64,000 nucleotides of DNA from Escherichia coli. Lineage in GTDB: Bacteria; Pseudomonadota; Gammaproteobacteria; Enterobacterales; Enterobacteriaceae. Within the stretch, counting starts at the first letter, position 1. The number at the start of each line of letters is the position of its first letter. Shown here piece by piece: positions 2,190-10,963 of this stretch. The notes under the pieces were generated by a model that saw only the letters and a program-made list of their open reading frames with translations, did no database searches and was not told the origin of the DNA. Position numbers and translations under genes: made by a program. The stretch lies in the NCBI RefSeq assembly GCF_045037415.1, contig NZ_CP173438.1; one strand, 5' to 3'.

Positions 2190-2224
2190 AATAAATTAAA
2201 AAAGGGACAGCCTGAGCTATCCCT
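2190..2224 (-). terminator. Intrinsic terminator downstream of efpL
   Basis: 9-bp imperfect stem agggacagc/gctatccct with 4-nt loop; on the minus strand followed by a U-tract (plus-strand aaaaaa at 2190-2197). Confidence 0.45.
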
Positions 2225-2243
2225 TTTCTGCATGCGGCTGAAG

Positions 2244-4770: not shown

Positions 4771-5901
4771 ATGTTCCAGTTATCTGTACAGGACATCCAT
4801 CCGGGCGAAAAGGCCGGAGACAAAGAAGAGGCGATTCGCCAGGTCGCTGCGGCGCTGGTGCAGGCCGGTAATGTAGCTGAAGGCTACGTCAATGGCATGC
4901 TGGCGCGCGAACAGCAAACCTCAACGTTCCTCGGCAATGGTATTGCTATTCCACACGGCACTACCGACACCCGCGATCAGGTGCTGAAAACCGGCGTTCA
5001 GGTATTTCAGTTCCCGGAAGGCGTCACCTGGGGGGACGGCCAGGTAGCGTACGTGGCGATCGGTATTGCTGCCAGCTCGGATGAACATCTGGGCCTGCTA
5101 CGCCAGCTGACCCACGTACTGAGCGATGATTCCGTTGCTGAACAACTGAAGTCAGCAACAACAGCAGAAGAACTTCGCGCATTGCTGATGGGCGAAAAGC
5201 AGAGTGAGCAGCTGAAGCTCGACAACGAAATGCTGACGCTGGATATCGTCGCCAGCGATCTGCTGACTCTTCAGGCGCTGAACGCTGCGCGTCTGAAAGA
5301 AGCGGGGGCAGTTGACGCCACTTTCGTCACCAAAGCCATCAATGAACAACCGCTGAACCTCGGACAGGGTATCTGGCTGAGCGATAGCGCCGAAGGCAAT
5401 CTGCGTAGCGCGATTGCGGTAAGCCGTGCGGCAAATGCTTTTGATGTGGACGGCGAAACGGCAGCCATGCTGGTGAGTGTGGCAATGAATGACGATCAGC
5501 CCATCGCGGTTCTTAAGCGTCTCGCTGATTTGTTGCTCGATAATAAAGCTGACCGCTTGCTGAAAGCGGATGCGGCAACGTTGCTGGCGCTGCTGACCAG
5601 CGATGATGCGCCGACCGACGACGTGTTAAGCGCGGAGTTTGTGGTGCGCAATGAACACGGCCTGCATGCTCGTCCAGGTACCATGCTGGTCAATACCATT
5701 AAACAATTTAACAGTGATATTACCGTGACAAACCTTGATGGCACCGGCAAACCGGCAAACGGACGTAGTCTGATGAAAGTTGTGGCACTTGGCGTTAAGA
5801 AAGGTCATCGCCTACGCTTTACCGCCCAGGGTGCAGATGCTGAACAGGCGCTGAAAGCCATTGGCGACGCTATCGCTGCTGGTCTTGGGGAGGGCGCATA
5901 A
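4771..5901 (+). CDS. fruB: Fructose PTS multiphosphoryl transfer protein (IIA-FPr)
   Basis: 376 aa; N-terminal IIA-like domain and C-terminal HPr-like domain (GLHARPG...); overlaps fruK start. Confidence 0.9.
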
Positions 5902-6839
5902 TGAGCAGACGTGTTGCTACGATCACCCTTAATCCGGCTTATGACCTTGTTGGTTTCTGCCCGGAAATTGAACGCGGCGAAGTGAACCTGGTGAAAACCA
6001 CCGGTCTGCATGCGGCGGGTAAAGGCATCAACGTGGCCAAAGTATTAAAAGACCTGGGAATTGATGTCACCGTTGGCGGCTTCCTGGGTAAAGACAATCA
6101 GGATGGTTTTCAGCAACTGTTCAGCGAGCTGGGCATTGCCAACCGTTTCCAGGTTGTACAGGGGCGCACCCGAATTAACGTTAAGCTGACGGAAAAAGAC
6201 GGCGAAGTGACCGACTTCAACTTCTCGGGTTTTGAAGTTACCCCCGCCGACTGGGAACGCTTTGTGACTGATTCTCTGAGCTGGCTCGGTCAGTTCGATA
6301 TGGTCTGTGTCAGCGGAAGCTTACCGTCAGGCGTCAGCCCGGAAGCGTTCACCGACTGGATGACTCGCCTGCGTAGTCAGTGTCCTTGCATTATCTTTGA
6401 TAGTAGCCGTGAAGCGTTAGTAGCAGGTTTGAAAGCGGCACCGTGGCTGGTGAAACCTAACCGCCGCGAGCTGGAAATCTGGGCAGGCCGTAAACTGCCT
6501 GAAATGAAAGATGTGATTGAAGCTGCACATGCGCTACGTGAACAAGGTATTGCGCATGTTGTTATTTCACTGGGTGCCGAAGGCGCGCTTTGGGTTAATG
6601 CCTCCGGCGAATGGATCGCCAAACCACCGTCAGTCGATGTCGTAAGCACCGTTGGCGCAGGGGATTCTATGGTTGGTGGCCTGATTTATGGCTTGCTGAT
6701 GCGTGAATCCAGTGAACACACACTGCGTCTGGCGACAGCTGTTGCAGCCCTGGCGGTAAGTCAAAGCAATGTGGGTATTACCGATCGTCCGCAGTTGGCC
6801 GCAATGATGGCGCGCGTCGACTTACAACCTTTTAACTGA
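5901..6839 (+). CDS. fruK: 1-phosphofructokinase
   Basis: 312 aa PfkB-family kinase; C-terminal GAGDSMVGG motif; ATGA overlap with fruB stop. Confidence 0.9.
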   Translation: MSRRVATITLNPAYDLVGFCPEIERGEVNLVKTTGLHAAGKGINVAKVLKDLGIDVTVGGFLGKDNQDGFQQLFSELGIANRFQVVQGRTRINVKLTEKDGEVTDFNFSGFEVTPADWERFVTDSLSWLGQFDMVCVSGSLPSGVSPEAFTDWMTRLRSQCPCIIFDSSREALVAGLKAAPWLVKPNRRELEIWAGRKLPEMKDVIEAAHALREQGIAHVVISLGAEGALWVNASGEWIAKPPSVDVVSTVGAGDSMVGGLIYGLLMRESSEHTLRLATAVAALAVSQSNVGITDRPQLAAMMARVDLQPFN

Positions 6840-6855: not shown

Positions 6856-8547
6856 ATGAAAACGCTGCTGATTATTGACGCTAATCTCGGTCAGGCACGC
6901 GCCTATATGGCGAAGACCCTGCTGGGCGCGGCGGCGCGAAAAGCAAAACTGGAAATCATCGACAATCCGAACGACGCAGAAATGGCGATTGTTCTCGGTG
7001 ATTTCATCCCGAATGACAGCGCGCTGAACGGTAAAAATGTCTGGCTGGGCGATATTTCCCGGGCAGTTGCGCACCCTGAGCTGTTCCTGAGTGAAGCCAA
7101 AGGCCATGCGAAACCTTACACTGCGCCGGTCGCTGCGACAGCACCGGTTGCTGCTAGCGGTCCGAAACGCGTAGTTGCGGTGACTGCTTGCCCGACTGGT
7201 GTAGCACACACCTTTATGGCGGCTGAAGCCATTGAAACCGAAGCGAAAAAACGTGGCTGGTGGGTGAAAGTTGAAACCCGTGGTTCTGTTGGCGCGGGTA
7301 ATGCAATCACACCTGAAGAAGTCGCAGCAGCGGATCTGGTGATTGTGGCGGCAGATATCGAAGTGGATCTGGCGAAATTTGCTGGTAAACCGATGTATCG
7401 CACCTCTACCGGTCTGGCGCTGAAGAAAACTGCGCAGGAACTGGATAAAGCGGTTGCTGAAGCAACGCCGTATGAACCAGCGGGCAAAGCTCAAACAGCG
7501 ACCACTGAAGGTAAGAAAGAGAGTGCAGGCGCTTACCGTCACTTGCTGACGGGCGTCTCTTACATGCTGCCGATGGTTGTTGCAGGTGGTCTGTGTATCG
7601 CGCTTTCTTTTGCTTTTGGTATCGAAGCGTTTAAAGAGCCGGGTACGTTGGCAGCGGCGCTGATGCAGATTGGTGGTGGTTCAGCCTTTGCGCTGATGGT
7701 GCCGGTACTGGCAGGTTATATTGCCTTCTCCATTGCCGATCGTCCGGGTCTCACGCCGGGTCTGATTGGCGGTATGCTGGCGGTTAGCACCGGTTCTGGC
7801 TTCATTGGCGGTATTATTGCGGGCTTCCTGGCGGGTTACATTGCGAAGTTAATCAGTACGCAACTGAAACTGCCACAGAGTATGGAGGCACTGAAACCGA
7901 TCCTGATCATTCCGCTAATTTCCAGTCTGGTGGTCGGTCTGGCGATGATCTACCTAATCGGTAAACCGGTTGCTGGCATTCTCGATGGGTTGACTCACTG
8001 GCTGCAGACCATGGGGACTGCGAATGCGGTTCTGCTGGGGGCGATCCTCGGTGGCATGATGTGTACTGACATGGGCGGTCCGGTAAACAAAGCAGCGTAC
8101 GCATTCGGTGTGGGTCTGCTGAGTACTCAAACCTATGGCCCGATGGCGGCGATTATGGCGGCAGGTATGGTGCCACCGCTGGCAATGGGTCTGGCAACAA
8201 TGGTGGCGCGTCGTAAATTCGATAAAGCGCAGCAGGAAGGTGGCAAAGCCGCTCTGGTACTTGGTCTGTGCTTTATTTCGGAAGGTGCAATTCCGTTTGC
8301 TGCTCGTGATCCGATGCGTGTGCTACCGTGCTGTATCGTTGGTGGGGCGCTGACTGGCGCAATCTCAATGGCGATTGGTGCGAAACTGATGGCTCCGCAC
8401 GGTGGTCTGTTTGTTCTGCTGATCCCTGGCGCTATTACGCCGGTATTGGGTTACCTGGTAGCAATTATTGCCGGTACGCTGGTGGCGGGTTTGGCCTATG
8501 CCTTCCTCAAACGCCCGGAAACACAAATAGTAGAAAAAAACGCATAA
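6856..8547 (+). CDS. fruA: PTS fructose-specific IIB'BC component
   Basis: 563 aa; N-terminal IIB-like domains followed by polytopic IIC membrane domain. Confidence 0.9.
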   Translation: MKTLLIIDANLGQARAYMAKTLLGAAARKAKLEIIDNPNDAEMAIVLGDFIPNDSALNGKNVWLGDISRAVAHPELFLSEAKGHAKPYTAPVAATAPVAASGPKRVVAVTACPTGVAHTFMAAEAIETEAKKRGWWVKVETRGSVGAGNAITPEEVAAADLVIVAADIEVDLAKFAGKPMYRTSTGLALKKTAQELDKAVAEATPYEPAGKAQTATTEGKKESAGAYRHLLTGVSYMLPMVVAGGLCIALSFAFGIEAFKEPGTLAAALMQIGGGSAFALMVPVLAGYIAFSIADRPGLTPGLIGGMLAVSTGSGFIGGIIAGFLAGYIAKLISTQLKLPQSMEALKPILIIPLISSLVVGLAMIYLIGKPVAGILDGLTHWLQTMGTANAVLLGAILGGMMCTDMGGPVNKAAYAFGVGLLSTQTYGPMAAIMAAGMVPPLAMGLATMVARRKFDKAQQEGGKAALVLGLCFISEGAIPFAARDPMRVLPCCIVGGALTGAISMAIGAKLMAPHGGLFVLLIPGAITPVLGYLVAIIAGTLVAGLAYAFLKRPETQIVEKNA

Positions 8548-8604
8548 TTTCTCTTCATCATCGGGGATGAGACATCTCTGCCCCGATGATGACAAACGCA
8601 AAAT

Positions 8605-8704
8605 TGCCTGATGCGCTATGCTTATCAGACCTACATGAACCCTGCAATATATTGAATTTTTGCGCTTTTGTAGGTCGGATAAGGCGTTTACGCCACATCC
8701 AGCA
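8605..8704. repeat. REP pair (BIME) downstream of fruA
   Basis: Two inverted REP units: tgcctgatgcgctatgcttatcagacctac and gtaggtcggataaggcgtttacgccacatccagca. Confidence 0.7.
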
Positions 8705-8732
8705 TGAACAAAGCGCGCATTGTCAACAATCT

Positions 8733-8761
8733 GAGGGCAGAAACATCTCTGCCCTTTTTCT
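8733..8761 (+). terminator. Intrinsic terminator of the fruBKA operon
   Basis: gagggcag-aaacatct-ctgccc hairpin followed by TTTTTC. Confidence 0.6.
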
Positions 8762-9002
8762 TGCCTGCCATATTGTGTGTTACACATCACAACTTTCTCT
8801 TTTGTTGCTGCATAAATAGACAAATTTTGTGACCGCCTTCATATCTGGCCGATTTCGTTTTTTCTGATCGATTTACATTACGTTAAACATGCTTATTATG
8901 AACATGTGTTTAAATCTGAACACATGCTCTAATAGTCTTATTGACTGTAATGACTATTTTACCCAATTTCTTCGTTGGCAATTTATTGCCAGGGGGCGTG
9001 CT

Positions 9003-9944
9003 ATGCGCGAAAAGGACTACATAGTAATTATTGGCTCGGCGAATATTGATGTGGCTGGGTATTCACATCATCCATTGAATTATGCGGATTCGAATCCCGG
9101 AAAAATTAAATTTACCCCAGGTGGCGTGGGAAGGAATATCGCTCATAATCTGGCGTTACTGGGGAAAAATGCCTGGCTTTTAAGTGCAGTAGGTGGTGAT
9201 TTTTATGGGCAATCATTACTGGCGCAAACTAATCAATCCGGTGTTTATGTCGATAAATGCTTAATTGTTCCGGGTGAGAATACATCCAGCTATTTATCAC
9301 TGCTCGATAATACAGGAGAAATGCTTGTCGCGATAAATGATATGAGTATTAGTGACTGTATTTCTGCAGAATTTCTTGCCCAGCATCAGGAGTTTATTCG
9401 CGGTGCAAAGGTTATTGTCGCGGATTGCAACCTTAGTGAAGAGGCGCTGGTCTGGGTTCTGGAAAATAGCGGGGAAACGCCTGTATTTATTGATCCGGTA
9501 TCGGCATGGAAATGCGTCAAAATCCGCGATCATCTGAGCAAAATCCATACGTTAAAACCTAACCGTCTTGAAGCCGAAACGTTGAGCGGAATTGCACTTT
9601 CCGGACGTGAAGATGTCGCAAAGGTCGCCGCCTGGTTTCATCAACACGGCCTGAACCGCCTGGTGCTGAGCATGGGAGGGGATGGCGTTTACTACAGTGA
9701 TATCAACGGTGAAAGTGGGTGGTCGGCCCCTATTAAAACGAATGTCATCAATGTTACTGGGGCAGGCGACGCCATGATGGCGGGGCTGGCCTCCTGTTGG
9801 GTAGACGGTATGCCGTTTATCGATTCTGTTCGATTTGCGCAGGGATGTTCGTCAATGGCACTTGCCTGTGAATATACCAACAACCCTGAATTATCAATTG
9901 CCAATGTTACATCGTTAGTGGAGAACACAGAATGTCTGAATTAA
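9003..9944 (+). CDS. psuK: Pseudouridine kinase (PfkB family)
   Basis: Track ORF 8889..9944 trimmed to MREKDYIVIIGSANIDV (313 aa); PfkB motifs GGVGRNIA and TGAGDAMMAG. Confidence 0.8.
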   Translation: MREKDYIVIIGSANIDVAGYSHHPLNYADSNPGKIKFTPGGVGRNIAHNLALLGKNAWLLSAVGGDFYGQSLLAQTNQSGVYVDKCLIVPGENTSSYLSLLDNTGEMLVAINDMSISDCISAEFLAQHQEFIRGAKVIVADCNLSEEALVWVLENSGETPVFIDPVSAWKCVKIRDHLSKIHTLKPNRLEAETLSGIALSGREDVAKVAAWFHQHGLNRLVLSMGGDGVYYSDINGESGWSAPIKTNVINVTGAGDAMMAGLASCWVDGMPFIDSVRFAQGCSSMALACEYTNNPELSIANVTSLVENTECLN

Positions 9945-10870
9945 CTCTGTCCCCTGAATTATTACAAATATCCGCTGAAGTACAGGATGCTTTAAAAAAT
10001 AAAAAACCGGTTGTTGCGCTGGAATCGACCATAATTTCTCACGGAATGCCATTCCCACAAAATGCCCAAACCGCAATTGAAGTAGAAGAAACAATTCGTA
10101 AACAGGGCGCAGTACCAGCCACTATCGCCATTATTGGCGGTGTGATGAAAGTGGGCTTAAGTAAAGAAGAAATCGAATTGCTGGGCCGTGAAGGACATAA
10201 CGTGACGAAAGTTAGTCGTCGTGATTTACCTTTTGTCGTTGCTGCAGGGAAAAATGGCGCGACTACCGTTGCATCAACCATGATTATTGCAGCACTGGCT
10301 GGGATTAAAGTTTTTGCAACCGGAGGTATTGGTGGTGTGCATCGCGGAGCGGAACATACCTTCGATATTTCTGCCGATTTACAGGAACTGGCAAATACCA
10401 ATGTCACTGTTGTTTGTGCGGGGGCAAAATCTATTCTCGATTTAGGATTAACAACAGAATATTTAGAAACCTTCGGTGTACCGTTAATTGGTTATCAGAC
10501 AAAAGCGCTGCCTGCGTTTTTCTGCCGAACCAGCCCATTTGATGTCAGCATTCGTCTCGACAGTGCCCGCGAAATTGCTCGCGCGATGGCAGTGAAGTGG
10601 CAAACCGGTTTGAACGGCGGCCTGGTGGTAGCGAACCCGATCCCGGAACAGTTTGCGATGCCAGAAGAAACCATCAATGCAGCAATTGATCAAGCCGTTG
10701 CTGAAGCCGAAGAACAGGGTGTTATTGGGAAAGAGAGTACACCGTTCCTGCTGGCGCGTGTTGCGGAGCTAACCGGCGGTGATAGCCTGAAATCCAATAT
10801 TCAACTGGTCTTTAATAACGCCATTCTGGCGAGCGAAATTGCCAAAGAATATCAGCGTCTCGTGGGTTAA
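9932..10870 (+). CDS. psuG: Pseudouridine-5'-phosphate glycosidase
   Basis: 312 aa; overlaps psuK 3' end by 13 nt; conserved psuK-psuG pairing. Confidence 0.85.
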   Translation: MSELTLSPELLQISAEVQDALKNKKPVVALESTIISHGMPFPQNAQTAIEVEETIRKQGAVPATIAIIGGVMKVGLSKEEIELLGREGHNVTKVSRRDLPFVVAAGKNGATTVASTMIIAALAGIKVFATGGIGGVHRGAEHTFDISADLQELANTNVTVVCAGAKSILDLGLTTEYLETFGVPLIGYQTKALPAFFCRTSPFDVSIRLDSAREIARAMAVKWQTGLNGGLVVANPIPEQFAMPEETINAAIDQAVAEAEEQGVIGKESTPFLLARVAELTGGDSLKSNIQLVFNNAILASEIAKEYQRLVG

Positions 10871-10963
10871 TTTCTGGTGGGCAGAAAGCCGTCGCCCGTA
10901 CTCATCAAACATACCAAAACCTGGCGCTGACGCCGGGTTTACTGGCATGAAGGGAAAATCATT

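What the first reader, a model, noticed from the sequence alone, without database searches (positions are those of the whole stretch)
8555..8761. Two related hairpins flank the REP pair downstream of fruA
catcggggatgagacatctctgccccgatg (8555-8590, no U-tract) and gagggcagaaacatctctgccc plus TTTTT (8733-8761) share the core acatctctgccc. This looks like a duplicated stem-loop on either side of a BIME, with only the distal copy forming a canonical terminator, perhaps a footprint of REP insertion into an ancestral terminator.
Basis: seen in the sequence. Interest (0 to 1): 0.2.

Follow-up and report, generated by a model that had tools for sequence, protein, structure and literature searches.

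The report
Terminator hairpin duplicated by BIME insertion
A 148-bp repetitive element (BIME-1) sits inside the transcription terminator of the fructose operon, flanked by two copies of the terminator's hairpin; the same footprint recurs at other BIME-1 copies, which hints at how these abundant bacterial repeats insert.

Summary
Hairpin 1 (8555-8592, no T-run) and hairpin 2 (8733-8756 plus T5) share 17 of 20 bases, more than any of 300 shuffles gave.

They are two copies of the fruBKA intrinsic terminator. In 31 loci from other genera, one stem-loop GGGCAGAGAtttCTCTGCCC plus T6-8 lies 16-29 nt after the fruA stop.

Here and in E. albertii, a complete BIME-1/RIP element (8587-8734) fills the interval between the two copies. 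Only the distal copy keeps the T-run.

The footprint is general. In 8 of 17 BIME-1 sites I could examine, the element is flanked by a direct repeat that is the local hairpin (18-21 bp, once 35 bp). Three further sites have an unoccupied form with a single hairpin: fbaA-mscS, metE-ysgA and yeiQ-yeiP. The yeiQ-yeiP empty site lies in this window near 2200.

One complication remains. The K-12-type allele, in 77% of E. coli genomes, has no REPs yet also has two related hairpins, around a unique 118-nt foldback of unknown origin.

I found no description of the hairpin-length duplication in the papers I could read. The insertion mechanism and the role of hairpin 1 are inferred.

The parts
6856..8547 (+). 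fruA (PTS fructose IIBC), last gene of fruBKA; stop codon at 8545-8547
   Evidence: ORF list; RefSeq annotation of an identical strain
8555..8592 (+). Hairpin 1: the proximal copy of the terminator stem-loop (repeat core 8564-8583), with no T-run. Its outer 7 bp pair the stop-proximal linker CATCATC with GATGATG (8585-8591), most of which (8587-8591) is the first bases of the inserted element
8587..8605 (+). BIME-1 left flanking motif ('A'): TGATGACAAACGCAAAATT
   Evidence: conserved in the copies at entD-fepA, ridA-mgtA and other sites
8606..8634 (+). Y-type REP / palindromic unit: GCCTGATGCGCTATGCTTATCAGACCTAC
8635..8669 (+). L linker of BIME-1, with CCTGCAATATATTGAAT. On the minus strand ATTCAATATATTG matches the IHF consensus WATCAANNNNTTR with one mismatch
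   Evidence: the IHF consensus is from established knowledge
8670..8704 (+). Z1-type REP with 5' GTAG: GTAGGTCGGATAAGGCGTTTACGCCACATCCAGCA
   Evidence: sub-threshold Rfam hits to REP-derived families
8705..8734 (+). BIME-1 right flanking motif ('B'): TGAACAAAGCGCGCATTGTCAACAATCTGA. Its reverse complement shares the 10-nt core TGWTGACAAA with the A motif
8733..8759 (+). Hairpin 2: the distal copy of the stem-loop (repeat core 8735-8754) plus T5. It is the intrinsic terminator of fruBKA and the ortholog of the single terminator of other genera
8872..8899 (+). Promoter-like site upstream of psuK (TTTACA-16-TATTAT). It marks the next transcription unit and is not part of the element
   Evidence: consensus match only

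Best explanation
The two hairpins are two copies of one ancestral structure, the Rho-independent terminator of the fruBKA operon.

In the ancestral state, still seen in Citrobacter, Enterobacter, Klebsiella and others, one stem-loop GGGCAGAGA-ttt-TCTCTGCCC followed by T6-8 lies 16-29 nt after the fruA stop.

In the lineage of this window (22% of E. coli genomes, and E. albertii), a complete BIME-1/RIP element of about 148 bp was inserted at the foot of that stem-loop, and the 20-nt stem-loop was duplicated. The arrangement is now: stop, linker, hairpin copy 1, BIME-1, hairpin copy 2, T-run, psuK promoter region.

Shown:
- the homology of both copies to the single ancestral hairpin;
- the exact abutment of the element ends on the two copies;
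- an added intergenic length equal to the element plus one hairpin;
- recurrence of the same footprint at other BIME-1 sites, with single-hairpin empty sites.

Inferred, insertion mechanism: the target was opened at both feet of the hairpin, or the hairpin was copied twice by a template switch, giving a hairpin-length target duplication.

Inferred, transcription: fruBKA transcripts read through hairpin 1, which has no U-tract, and through the BIME, and stop at hairpin 2. Hairpin 1 and the REP stem-loops then act as barriers to 3'-5' exonucleases, so the mRNA can be trimmed back to them.
For: - Ancestral state: 31 non-Escherichia fruA loci have exactly one core hairpin, 16-29 nt after the stop. 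L008 and L026 have a stem one base shorter.
- Where psuK follows, the intergenic region is about 283-325 nt in other genera. It is 422 nt in K-12 and 455 nt here. The excess here (about 172 nt) equals element plus one hairpin.
- The sequence downstream of hairpin 2 is homologous to the post-terminator sequence of Citrobacter and Enterobacter, for example TTGTGA..TTCATATCTGGC.
- The linker upstream of hairpin 1 resembles ancestral stop-to-hairpin linkers, for example CTCTTCA in L068.
- Against the commonest single-hairpin core GGGCAGAGATTTCTCTGCCC, E. albertii hairpins 1 and 2 each match 18 of 20. The window's match 16 and 17 of 20 (sequences).
- The repeated element runs from TGATGAC... (8587) to ...CAATCTGA (8734), exactly between the repeat cores.
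- Generality: the flanks of 17 distinct BIME-1 sites were compared with a cross-site null (mean 12.6, 99th percentile 19.5). Six sites score 30-35 (p <= 0.003) and two score 17-18 (p 0.03-0.06). In each case the repeat is a local hairpin.
- Empty sites with one hairpin: fbaA-mscS within E. coli (3719 occupied genomes; the remaining ~1,700 lack a full-length match, and all 12 sampled were the 284-bp single-terminator form), metE-ysgA, yeiQ-yeiP.
- The repeats are direct, not inverted. Loop sequences (AAC, CTAAATG, TATCr) and the T-run plus GCCAAAAGCAA at fbaA keep their orientation.
- Only hairpin 2 meets terminator criteria.
- Stable stem-loops without a U-tract define and protect mRNA 3' ends in E. 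coli (PMC6061677).
Against: - The K-12-type allele (4196 of 5426 genomes, and three other Escherichia species) has two hairpins of the same core flanking a 118-nt spacer with no REP. That spacer shows no significant similarity to BIME-1: no nhmmer hit, alignment p 0.06-0.9. The duplication at this locus could therefore predate the BIME.
- No window-type E. coli with an empty site was seen. All full-coverage rows among 30 sampled of 1200 spanned 321 bp, the occupied form.
- The duplication length varies (18-21 bp, and 35 bp at fbaA), unlike a classical transposase footprint.
- IS200/IS605-type Y1 transposases, the relatives of the REP-associated transposase, make no target duplication (PMC3333891).
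- No transcript 3'-end data exist for this allele, and the Term-seq supplement I could search has no fruA entry.
- Three of 11 BIME-1 copies with both ends intact have no flanking repeat.
Confidence: 0.72

Rival explanations
1. The duplication is older than the BIME. An earlier insertion in the Escherichia ancestor split and duplicated the terminator around a different foldback, which the K-12-type allele preserves. In the window/albertii lineage that spacer was later replaced by a BIME-1.
For: - Both allele lineages have two hairpins. On psuK+psuG DNA they are sister lineages, with single-hairpin genera outside them. One duplication event is therefore the more parsimonious count.
- The K-12-type spacer is a conserved imperfect foldback of about 95 nt, closed by invariant TTTGATGA/TCATCAAA.
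Against: - The BIME-1 ends abut the hairpin copies here exactly as at seven other sites. Three of those have empty forms with a single hairpin and nothing else.
- A replacement would have had to reproduce those junctions precisely.
- No intermediate allele was seen.
Confidence: 0.15
2. There was one event and one element. The Escherichia ancestor acquired a BIME-1 with hairpin duplication, and the K-12-type spacer is that BIME-1 decayed or stripped of its REPs.
For: - Compared with a REP-less skeleton (A + L + B motifs), the K-12-type spacers give p = 0.015, 0.10, 0.005 and 0.22.
- The closing stem TTTGATGA resembles the BIME-1 terminal core TGATGACAAA.
- The central TGTAATTTTATGAATTT resembles TGCAATATATTGAATTT.
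Against: - The skeleton test was devised after seeing the data and is weak.
- Full-element comparisons are not significant.
- Neighbouring intergenic DNA of the two alleles still aligns at 58-71%, so simple decay should have left more signal.
Confidence: 0.25
3. The two hairpins are unrelated structures: an mRNA-stabilising stem-loop and a terminator. They resemble each other by chance or because G+C-rich stems converge.
For: Each arm constrains its partner, so the number of independent matching positions is smaller than 17.
Against: - No shuffle of 300 reached 17 of 20.
- Both match the single ancestral hairpin, loop included.
- Outgroups have only one hairpin.
- The same pattern, with locus-specific sequences, occurs at seven other sites.
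Confidence: 0.03
4. The flanking copies arose by outward growth of a long palindrome: fold-back priming that copies one flank, inverted, onto the other side of the BIME.
For: BIME-1 is itself a long imperfect palindrome (A/B and Y/Z1 are inverted pairs). A palindromic hairpin looks alike in either orientation.
Against: Asymmetric loops and the T-run plus GCCAAAAGCAA at fbaA-mscS are kept in direct, not inverted, orientation.
Confidence: 0.03

Closest known systems
BIME-1 / RIP / RIB elements of E. coli (Y and Z1 palindromic units around an IHF-binding L linker)
   Same: - Y REP, L linker with CCTGCAATATATTGAAT, Z1 REP with GTAG, and conserved outer motifs.
- Single copy, about 140-150 bp, at the 3' end of a transcription unit.
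- Present or absent among strains (PMC3333891; PMC1187871).
   Different: The K-12 reference has no BIME at fruA-psuK. The flanking duplication of the local terminator hairpin is not mentioned in any paper I could read.
Rho-independent (intrinsic) terminators
   Same: Hairpin 2 has a 9-bp G+C-rich stem, a 6-nt loop and a T-run. It lies downstream of the last gene and is the ortholog of the conserved fruA terminator.
   Different: Hairpin 1 has the stem-loop but no U-tract, so it fails the definition.
Stem-loops without a U-tract that define steady-state 3' ends of E. coli mRNAs (Dar and Sorek 2018)
   Same: Hairpin 1 is a very stable stem-loop without a U-tract, directly after a stop codon (PMC6061677).
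   Different: No 3'-end data exist for this allele. The role is inferred.
Target-site duplications of MITEs and insertion sequences
   Same: Direct repeats abut the element ends, the unoccupied site holds one copy, and the element has short terminal inverted repeats (TGWTGACAAA).
   Different: The length is not fixed (18-21 bp, and 35 bp once) and coincides with a structure, the whole stem-loop, rather than a set number of bases.
REP-associated Y1 transposase (RAYT/TnpA-REP) and the IS200/IS605 family
   Same: These enzymes recognise DNA hairpins in single strands and are the proposed mobilisers of REP/BIME (PMC3333891).
   Different: The family is described as making no target duplication. 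No link between RAYT and these junctions was tested here.
Bacterial class C group II introns (from memory, not checked here)
   Same: These mobile elements choose the foot of intrinsic-terminator stem-loops as their insertion site.
   Different: They are ribozyme-based, much larger, and cause no duplication of the hairpin.

Membership tests
BIME-1 / RIP element | One Y-type and one Z1-type palindromic unit in inverted orientation | tested here: met
   Arms 8621-8635 / 8669-8683 are 93% complementary. The sequence aligns along its whole length with BIME-1 copies at entD-fepA, fbaA-mscS and ridA-mgtA.
BIME-1 / RIP element | Long conserved L linker carrying an IHF consensus site | tested here: met
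   CCTGCAATATATTGAAT is exact at 8641-8657. The minus strand matches WATCAANNNNTTR with one mismatch. IHF binding itself cannot be tested with these tools.
BIME-1 / RIP element | Single copy (not a tandem array), extragenic, at the 3' end of a transcription unit | tested here: met
   There is one element between the fruA stop and the psuK promoter region, and it is the only L motif in the 64-kb window.
BIME-1 / RIP element | Conserved outer motifs flanking the two palindromic units | tested here: met
   8587-8605 and 8705-8734 are shared with other copies. Consensus: ACTGATGACAAACGCAAAACTGCC / ...GCGCACTTTGTCAACAATCTGA.
Intrinsic terminator (hairpin 2) | G+C-rich stem of at least 5 bp, loop of 3-8 nt, and at least 5 T in the 8 nt that follow | tested here: met
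   9 pairs, 5 of them G-C, loop of 6 nt, tail TTTCTTGCCT after the stem with T5 overlapping its end.
Intrinsic terminator (hairpin 2) | Stops transcription in vivo | not testable with these tools
   No 3'-end data. Adams 2021 supplements have no fruA entry.
Intrinsic terminator (hairpin 1) | U-tract directly after the stem | tested here: not met
   ACAAACGC follows it, and the terminator scan did not report it.
Classical transposon target-site duplication | Direct repeats immediately abutting both element ends, with one copy at the unoccupied site | tested here: met
   fruA. Empty sites at fbaA-mscS, metE-ysgA and yeiQ-yeiP.
Classical transposon target-site duplication | Fixed duplication length characteristic of the transposase | tested here: not met
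   18-21 bp at most sites, about 25-29 bp at ridA-mgtA and yeiQ-yeiP, 35 bp at fbaA-mscS. The length follows the hairpin.
RAYT-mobilised REP/REPIN | REP with 5' GTAG, recognised by TnpA-REP, with cleavage at C|T | tested here: inconclusive
   GTAG is present at 8670-8673. C|T dinucleotides occur near some junctions (..AATC|TGA) but not consistently. Whether this genome carries a RAYT gene was not examined.

The most novel reading that the evidence does not exclude
BIME-1 elements are foldback elements that integrate at the foot of intrinsic-terminator hairpins and duplicate the whole stem-loop. One possible route: both strands are opened at the feet of the extruded hairpin by a hairpin-recognising enzyme such as the REP-associated Y1 transposase. 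The hairpin-length direct repeat would then be a general, previously unrecognised footprint of how REP/BIME repeats colonise 3' ends of genes. It would also be a source of paired 'stem-loop without U-tract plus true terminator' 3' UTRs.
Probability: 0.35. Interest if true: 0.75.

Novelty: new variant of a known kind. Interest (0 to 1): 0.55.

Why it matters
REP/BIME repeats are the most abundant repeats of E. coli, yet how they reach new sites is still unknown. The literature I could read describes them as lacking insertion footprints.

A recurrent duplication of exactly the local terminator stem-loop, backed by empty-site alleles, gives a concrete junction structure that any insertion model must explain. 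It also offers an easy computational marker for dating and counting insertions.

The footprint further explains a class of 3' UTRs in which a stable hairpin without a U-tract sits next to the stop codon and the real terminator lies about 170 nt further on. That arrangement should affect mRNA stability and read-through. For fruBKA, it should also affect insulation from the psuKGT promoter.

Tried and rejected
1. K-12-type spacer as a recognisable BIME-1: nhmmer with a BIME-1 profile gave no hit. Local and global alignment against 500 shuffles gave p 0.06-0.9. A REP-less skeleton test devised afterwards was weak.
2. Tandem duplication of the fruA 3' end or of the downstream region as the source of the K-12 spacer: no signal.
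3. A longer repeat in the K-12-type allele that includes the stop codon and linker: per-allele p = 0.105, 0.58, 0.0095, 0.95; profile-profile p = 0.17. Inconclusive.
4. K-12 spacer as a dispersed repeat: it is single-copy in E. coli, even with blastn at word size 11.
5. Inverted duplication (palindrome growth): rejected on loop orientation.
6. Rfam: only sub-threshold matches to REP-derived families (naRNA4 29 bits against 59.5; ES036 27 against 37.6) and nothing for either hairpin.
7. Window-type E. coli without the BIME: none among sampled rows.
8. Transcript 3' ends: Adams 2021 supplements have no fruA or psuK entry, and Dar and Sorek supplements are not held.
9. Bachellier et al. 1997 (Genetics 145:551), the paper most likely to have described flanks of BIME-1 presence/absence sites, could not be read.
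10. The 11-of-12 repeat AAACGCATAATT / AAACGCAAAATT around hairpin 1: the second copy is part of the BIME-1 A motif. The match with the fruA end is probably chance and was left unexplained.

Full report
**What is in the window**

The window is E. coli; it is 100% identical to several RefSeq genomes over 8350-8950. The genes are fruB 4771-5901, fruK 5901-6839 and fruA 6856-8547, followed by psuK (9003-9944), psuG and psuT.

Seven bases after the fruA stop begins hairpin 1, 8555-8592. Its 12-bp outer stem is CATCATCGGGG(A)/(U)CCCCGAUGAUG, with a degenerate inner part. MFE is -25.1 kcal/mol, z = -5.8, and no T-run follows.

Hairpin 2, 8733-8756, is GAGGGCAGA-aacatc-TCTGCCCTT with T5 at 8755-8759. 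It is the only terminator-like site on either strand of 8400-9100.

The two share a 20-nt direct repeat, 8564-8583 against 8735-8754, with 17 of 20 identical and 12 in a row. In 300 dinucleotide shuffles of 8500-8900, a 12-nt exact repeat arose 4 times and a 17-of-20 match never.

**What lies between the hairpins**

The repeat between them is larger than the REP pair. Aligned with copies at entD-fepA, fbaA-mscS and ridA-mgtA, the conserved unit runs from TGATGACAAACGCAAAATT (8587) to TTGTCAACAATCTGA (8734). It consists of:
- a left outer motif;
- a Y-type REP (8606-8634);
- the L linker with CCTGCAATATATTGAAT (an IHF-type site);
- a Z1-type REP with GTAG (8670-8704);
- a right outer motif.

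This is a complete BIME-1/RIP element, described as about 140 bp (PMC1187871) with Y, L and Z1 (PMC3333891).

The outer motifs are short terminal inverted repeats, TGATGACAAA against TGTTGACAAA.

The element fills exactly the interval between the two repeat cores. The 3' arm extension GATGATG of hairpin 1 (8585-8591) is largely the first bases of the element (from 8587).

**The ancestral state**

A scan of one genome per species with the FruA C-terminus gave 80 loci. In 31 non-Escherichia loci there is one core hairpin, and only one, 16-29 nt after the stop. These include Citrobacter, Enterobacter, Klebsiella, Buttiauxella, Atlantibacter and Silvania. The hairpin is mostly GGGCAGAGAtttCTCTGCCC with T6-8. 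L008 and L026 have a stem one base shorter.

Where psuK follows fruA, the intergenic region is about 283-325 nt. It is 422 nt in K-12 and 455 nt here. The excess here equals the element plus one hairpin copy.

The sequence after hairpin 2 is homologous to the post-terminator sequence of those genera. The linker before hairpin 1 resembles their stop-to-hairpin linkers.

Against the commonest outgroup core, E. albertii's two copies each match 18 of 20 and the window's match 16 and 17 of 20. Both hairpins therefore descend from one terminator: copy 1 kept the upstream context, and copy 2 kept the T-run and the downstream context.

**Age and distribution**

In total, 1193 of 5426 E. coli genomes carry this allele and 4196 carry the K-12-type.

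E. albertii (L003 and the metagenome contig L157) has the same hairpin-BIME-hairpin arrangement. Its divergence from the window is about 85-97%, uniform across yeiQ to psuT. The arrangement is therefore at least as old as the split between those lineages.

**Generality**

I collected BIME-1 copies in two ways: a metagenome scan for the L motif, and an nhmmer search with a BIME-1 profile over all 1.57 Mb held. This gave 17 distinct sites.

I compared the 60 nt outside the two element ends with a cross-site null (mean 12.6, 99th percentile 19.5).
- Six sites score 30-35: fruA, fbaA-mscS, metE-ysgA, ridA-mgtA, chbG-katE and yeiQ-yeiP.
- Two score 17-18: priC..mscK and a site next to satP.

In every case the repeat is a locus-specific stem-loop that abuts both element ends. 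It is 18-21 bp at most sites, about 25-29 bp at two, and 35 bp at fbaA-mscS, where it also includes the T-run and GCCAAAAGCAA.

Of 11 copies with both ends intact, 8 have the repeat. Four of the six truncated copies still have a hairpin against the intact end.

Loop sequences keep their orientation, so these are direct repeats.

**Empty sites**

- fbaA-mscS is polymorphic in E. coli. 3719 genomes are occupied. The remainder, about 1,700, did not cover 80% of the query, and all 12 sampled rows were a 284-bp form with one terminator.
- metE-ysgA is empty in E. coli, with the single hairpin CGGGTGGTAATACCACCCG. It is occupied, with two copies, in an Escherichia-like metagenome contig.
- yeiQ-yeiP is empty in this very window (hairpin 2204-2223). 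It is occupied in the E. albertii-like contig L157.

The copy next to the T-run tends to stay a good hairpin, or even gain one. There are two A-T to G-C compensatory pairs at yeiQ-yeiP and one at metE-ysgA. The other copy tends to decay, as does the inner stem of hairpin 1 here.

**The complication**

K-12 and its allele class diverge from the window from about 8510, the last roughly 12 codons of fruA, to about 12300, the end of psuT. Identity there is 75-92%, against 98-99% outside.

That allele has no REP. It nevertheless has two hairpins of the same core, AGGGCAGAAATTTCCTGyCCT and AGGGCAGATTAwTTTCTGCCCT plus T6. They lie around a single-copy 118-nt spacer.

The spacer is not detectably BIME-1. 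It does fold as one roughly 95-nt imperfect foldback closed by invariant TTTGATGA/TCATCAAA in four Escherichia species. A skeleton comparison devised after seeing the data is only suggestive.

On psuK+psuG DNA the two allele classes are sisters, with the single-hairpin genera outside them. Three histories remain open:
- one old insertion whose BIME decayed in the K-12 class;
- an older foldback later replaced by a BIME;
- two independent hits on the same hairpin.

I favour BIME-caused duplication for the window allele, because its junctions are those of the other sites. The locus alone does not prove it.

**Function (inferred)**

Hairpin 1 has no U-tract, so RNA polymerase should read through it and the BIME and stop at hairpin 2, upstream of the psuK promoter-like site at 8872-8899.

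The whole 3' UTR is strongly structured: -79.8 kcal/mol, z = -6.0.

Stable stem-loops without a U-tract mark and protect E. coli mRNA 3' ends from PNPase and RNase II (PMC6061677). Hairpin 1 and the REPs are therefore expected to be processing end-points. No 3'-end data for fruA were available.

**Prior knowledge**

Presence/absence polymorphism of BIME-1 is known (PMC1187871, citing Bachellier 1997). IS200/IS605 relatives are said not to make direct repeats (PMC3333891). A review states that REPs lack MITE signatures (PMC3184786).

None of the papers I could read mentions duplicated terminator hairpins at BIME-1 ends.

**Verdict**

The locus itself is a modest case. The recurring hairpin-length duplication is the interesting part and needs a genome-wide census.

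Noticed in passing
window 8510-12300: The last ~12 codons of fruA, the intergenic region and all of psuKGT form a deeply divergent allele block against K-12: 75-92% identity, against 98-99% on both sides. Relative to E. albertii the window shows uniform species-level divergence (~85-97%). The K-12-type block, in 77% of E. coli, is therefore the deeper lineage. This is a trans-specific polymorphism or an old import.
   Followed up: partly
window 2198-2227: A single bidirectional-looking terminator hairpin between yeiQ and yeiP: AAAAAGGGACAGCCTGAGCTATCCCTTTT. It is the unoccupied form of a BIME-1 site. The E. albertii-like contig L157 (3948-4097) has a BIME-1 there, flanked by two copies. The right copy differs by two A-T to G-C compensatory pairs.
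   Followed up: yes
L084 1440-1830 and L086 360-590 (fbaA-mscS): A BIME-1 presence/absence polymorphism within E. coli. 3719 genomes are occupied and the remaining ~1,700 lack a full-length match (12 sampled rows were the short form). The occupied form has a 34-35-bp direct repeat covering the whole fbaA terminator, its T-run and GCCAAAAGCAA. The left junction lies in a stretch resembling the element's own outer motif.
   Followed up: yes
window 8518-8547: The FruA C-terminus here and in E. albertii (..ETQIVEKNA / ..ETQVVAKNA) differs from the ..AKAA ending shared by K-12 and other genera, although the rest of FruA is conserved. The DNA AAAAACGCATAATT resembles the BIME-1 outer motif ACAAACGCAAAATT (8592-8605), 12 of 14.
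   Followed up: no
L002 5236-5353 (K-12 fruA-psuK spacer): A single-copy 118-nt AT-rich spacer between the two K-12 hairpins. It folds as a ~95-nt imperfect foldback closed by TTTGATGA/TCATCAAA and is conserved in four Escherichia species. Its origin is unknown.
   Followed up: partly
L087 (strain 7_56_38A, ridA-mgtA): An IS621 (IS110-family) transposase gene lies within ~100 bp of the truncated ridA-mgtA BIME-1 in this strain, in line with the known REP targeting of that IS.
   Followed up: no
L006 3098-3300 (Escherichia sp. MOD1-EC7003): A deletion runs from inside the K-12-type spacer into psuG. It removes hairpin 2 and psuK, so only the hairpin without a T-run remains after fruA.
   Followed up: no
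window 8555-8592: Natural variants of hairpin 1's inner stem: GGGGATGAGA (window), GGGGCTGAGA (metagenome L088) and GGGGCAGAGA (E. albertii). The inner stem is decaying while the 11-bp outer stem stays intact.
   Followed up: partly
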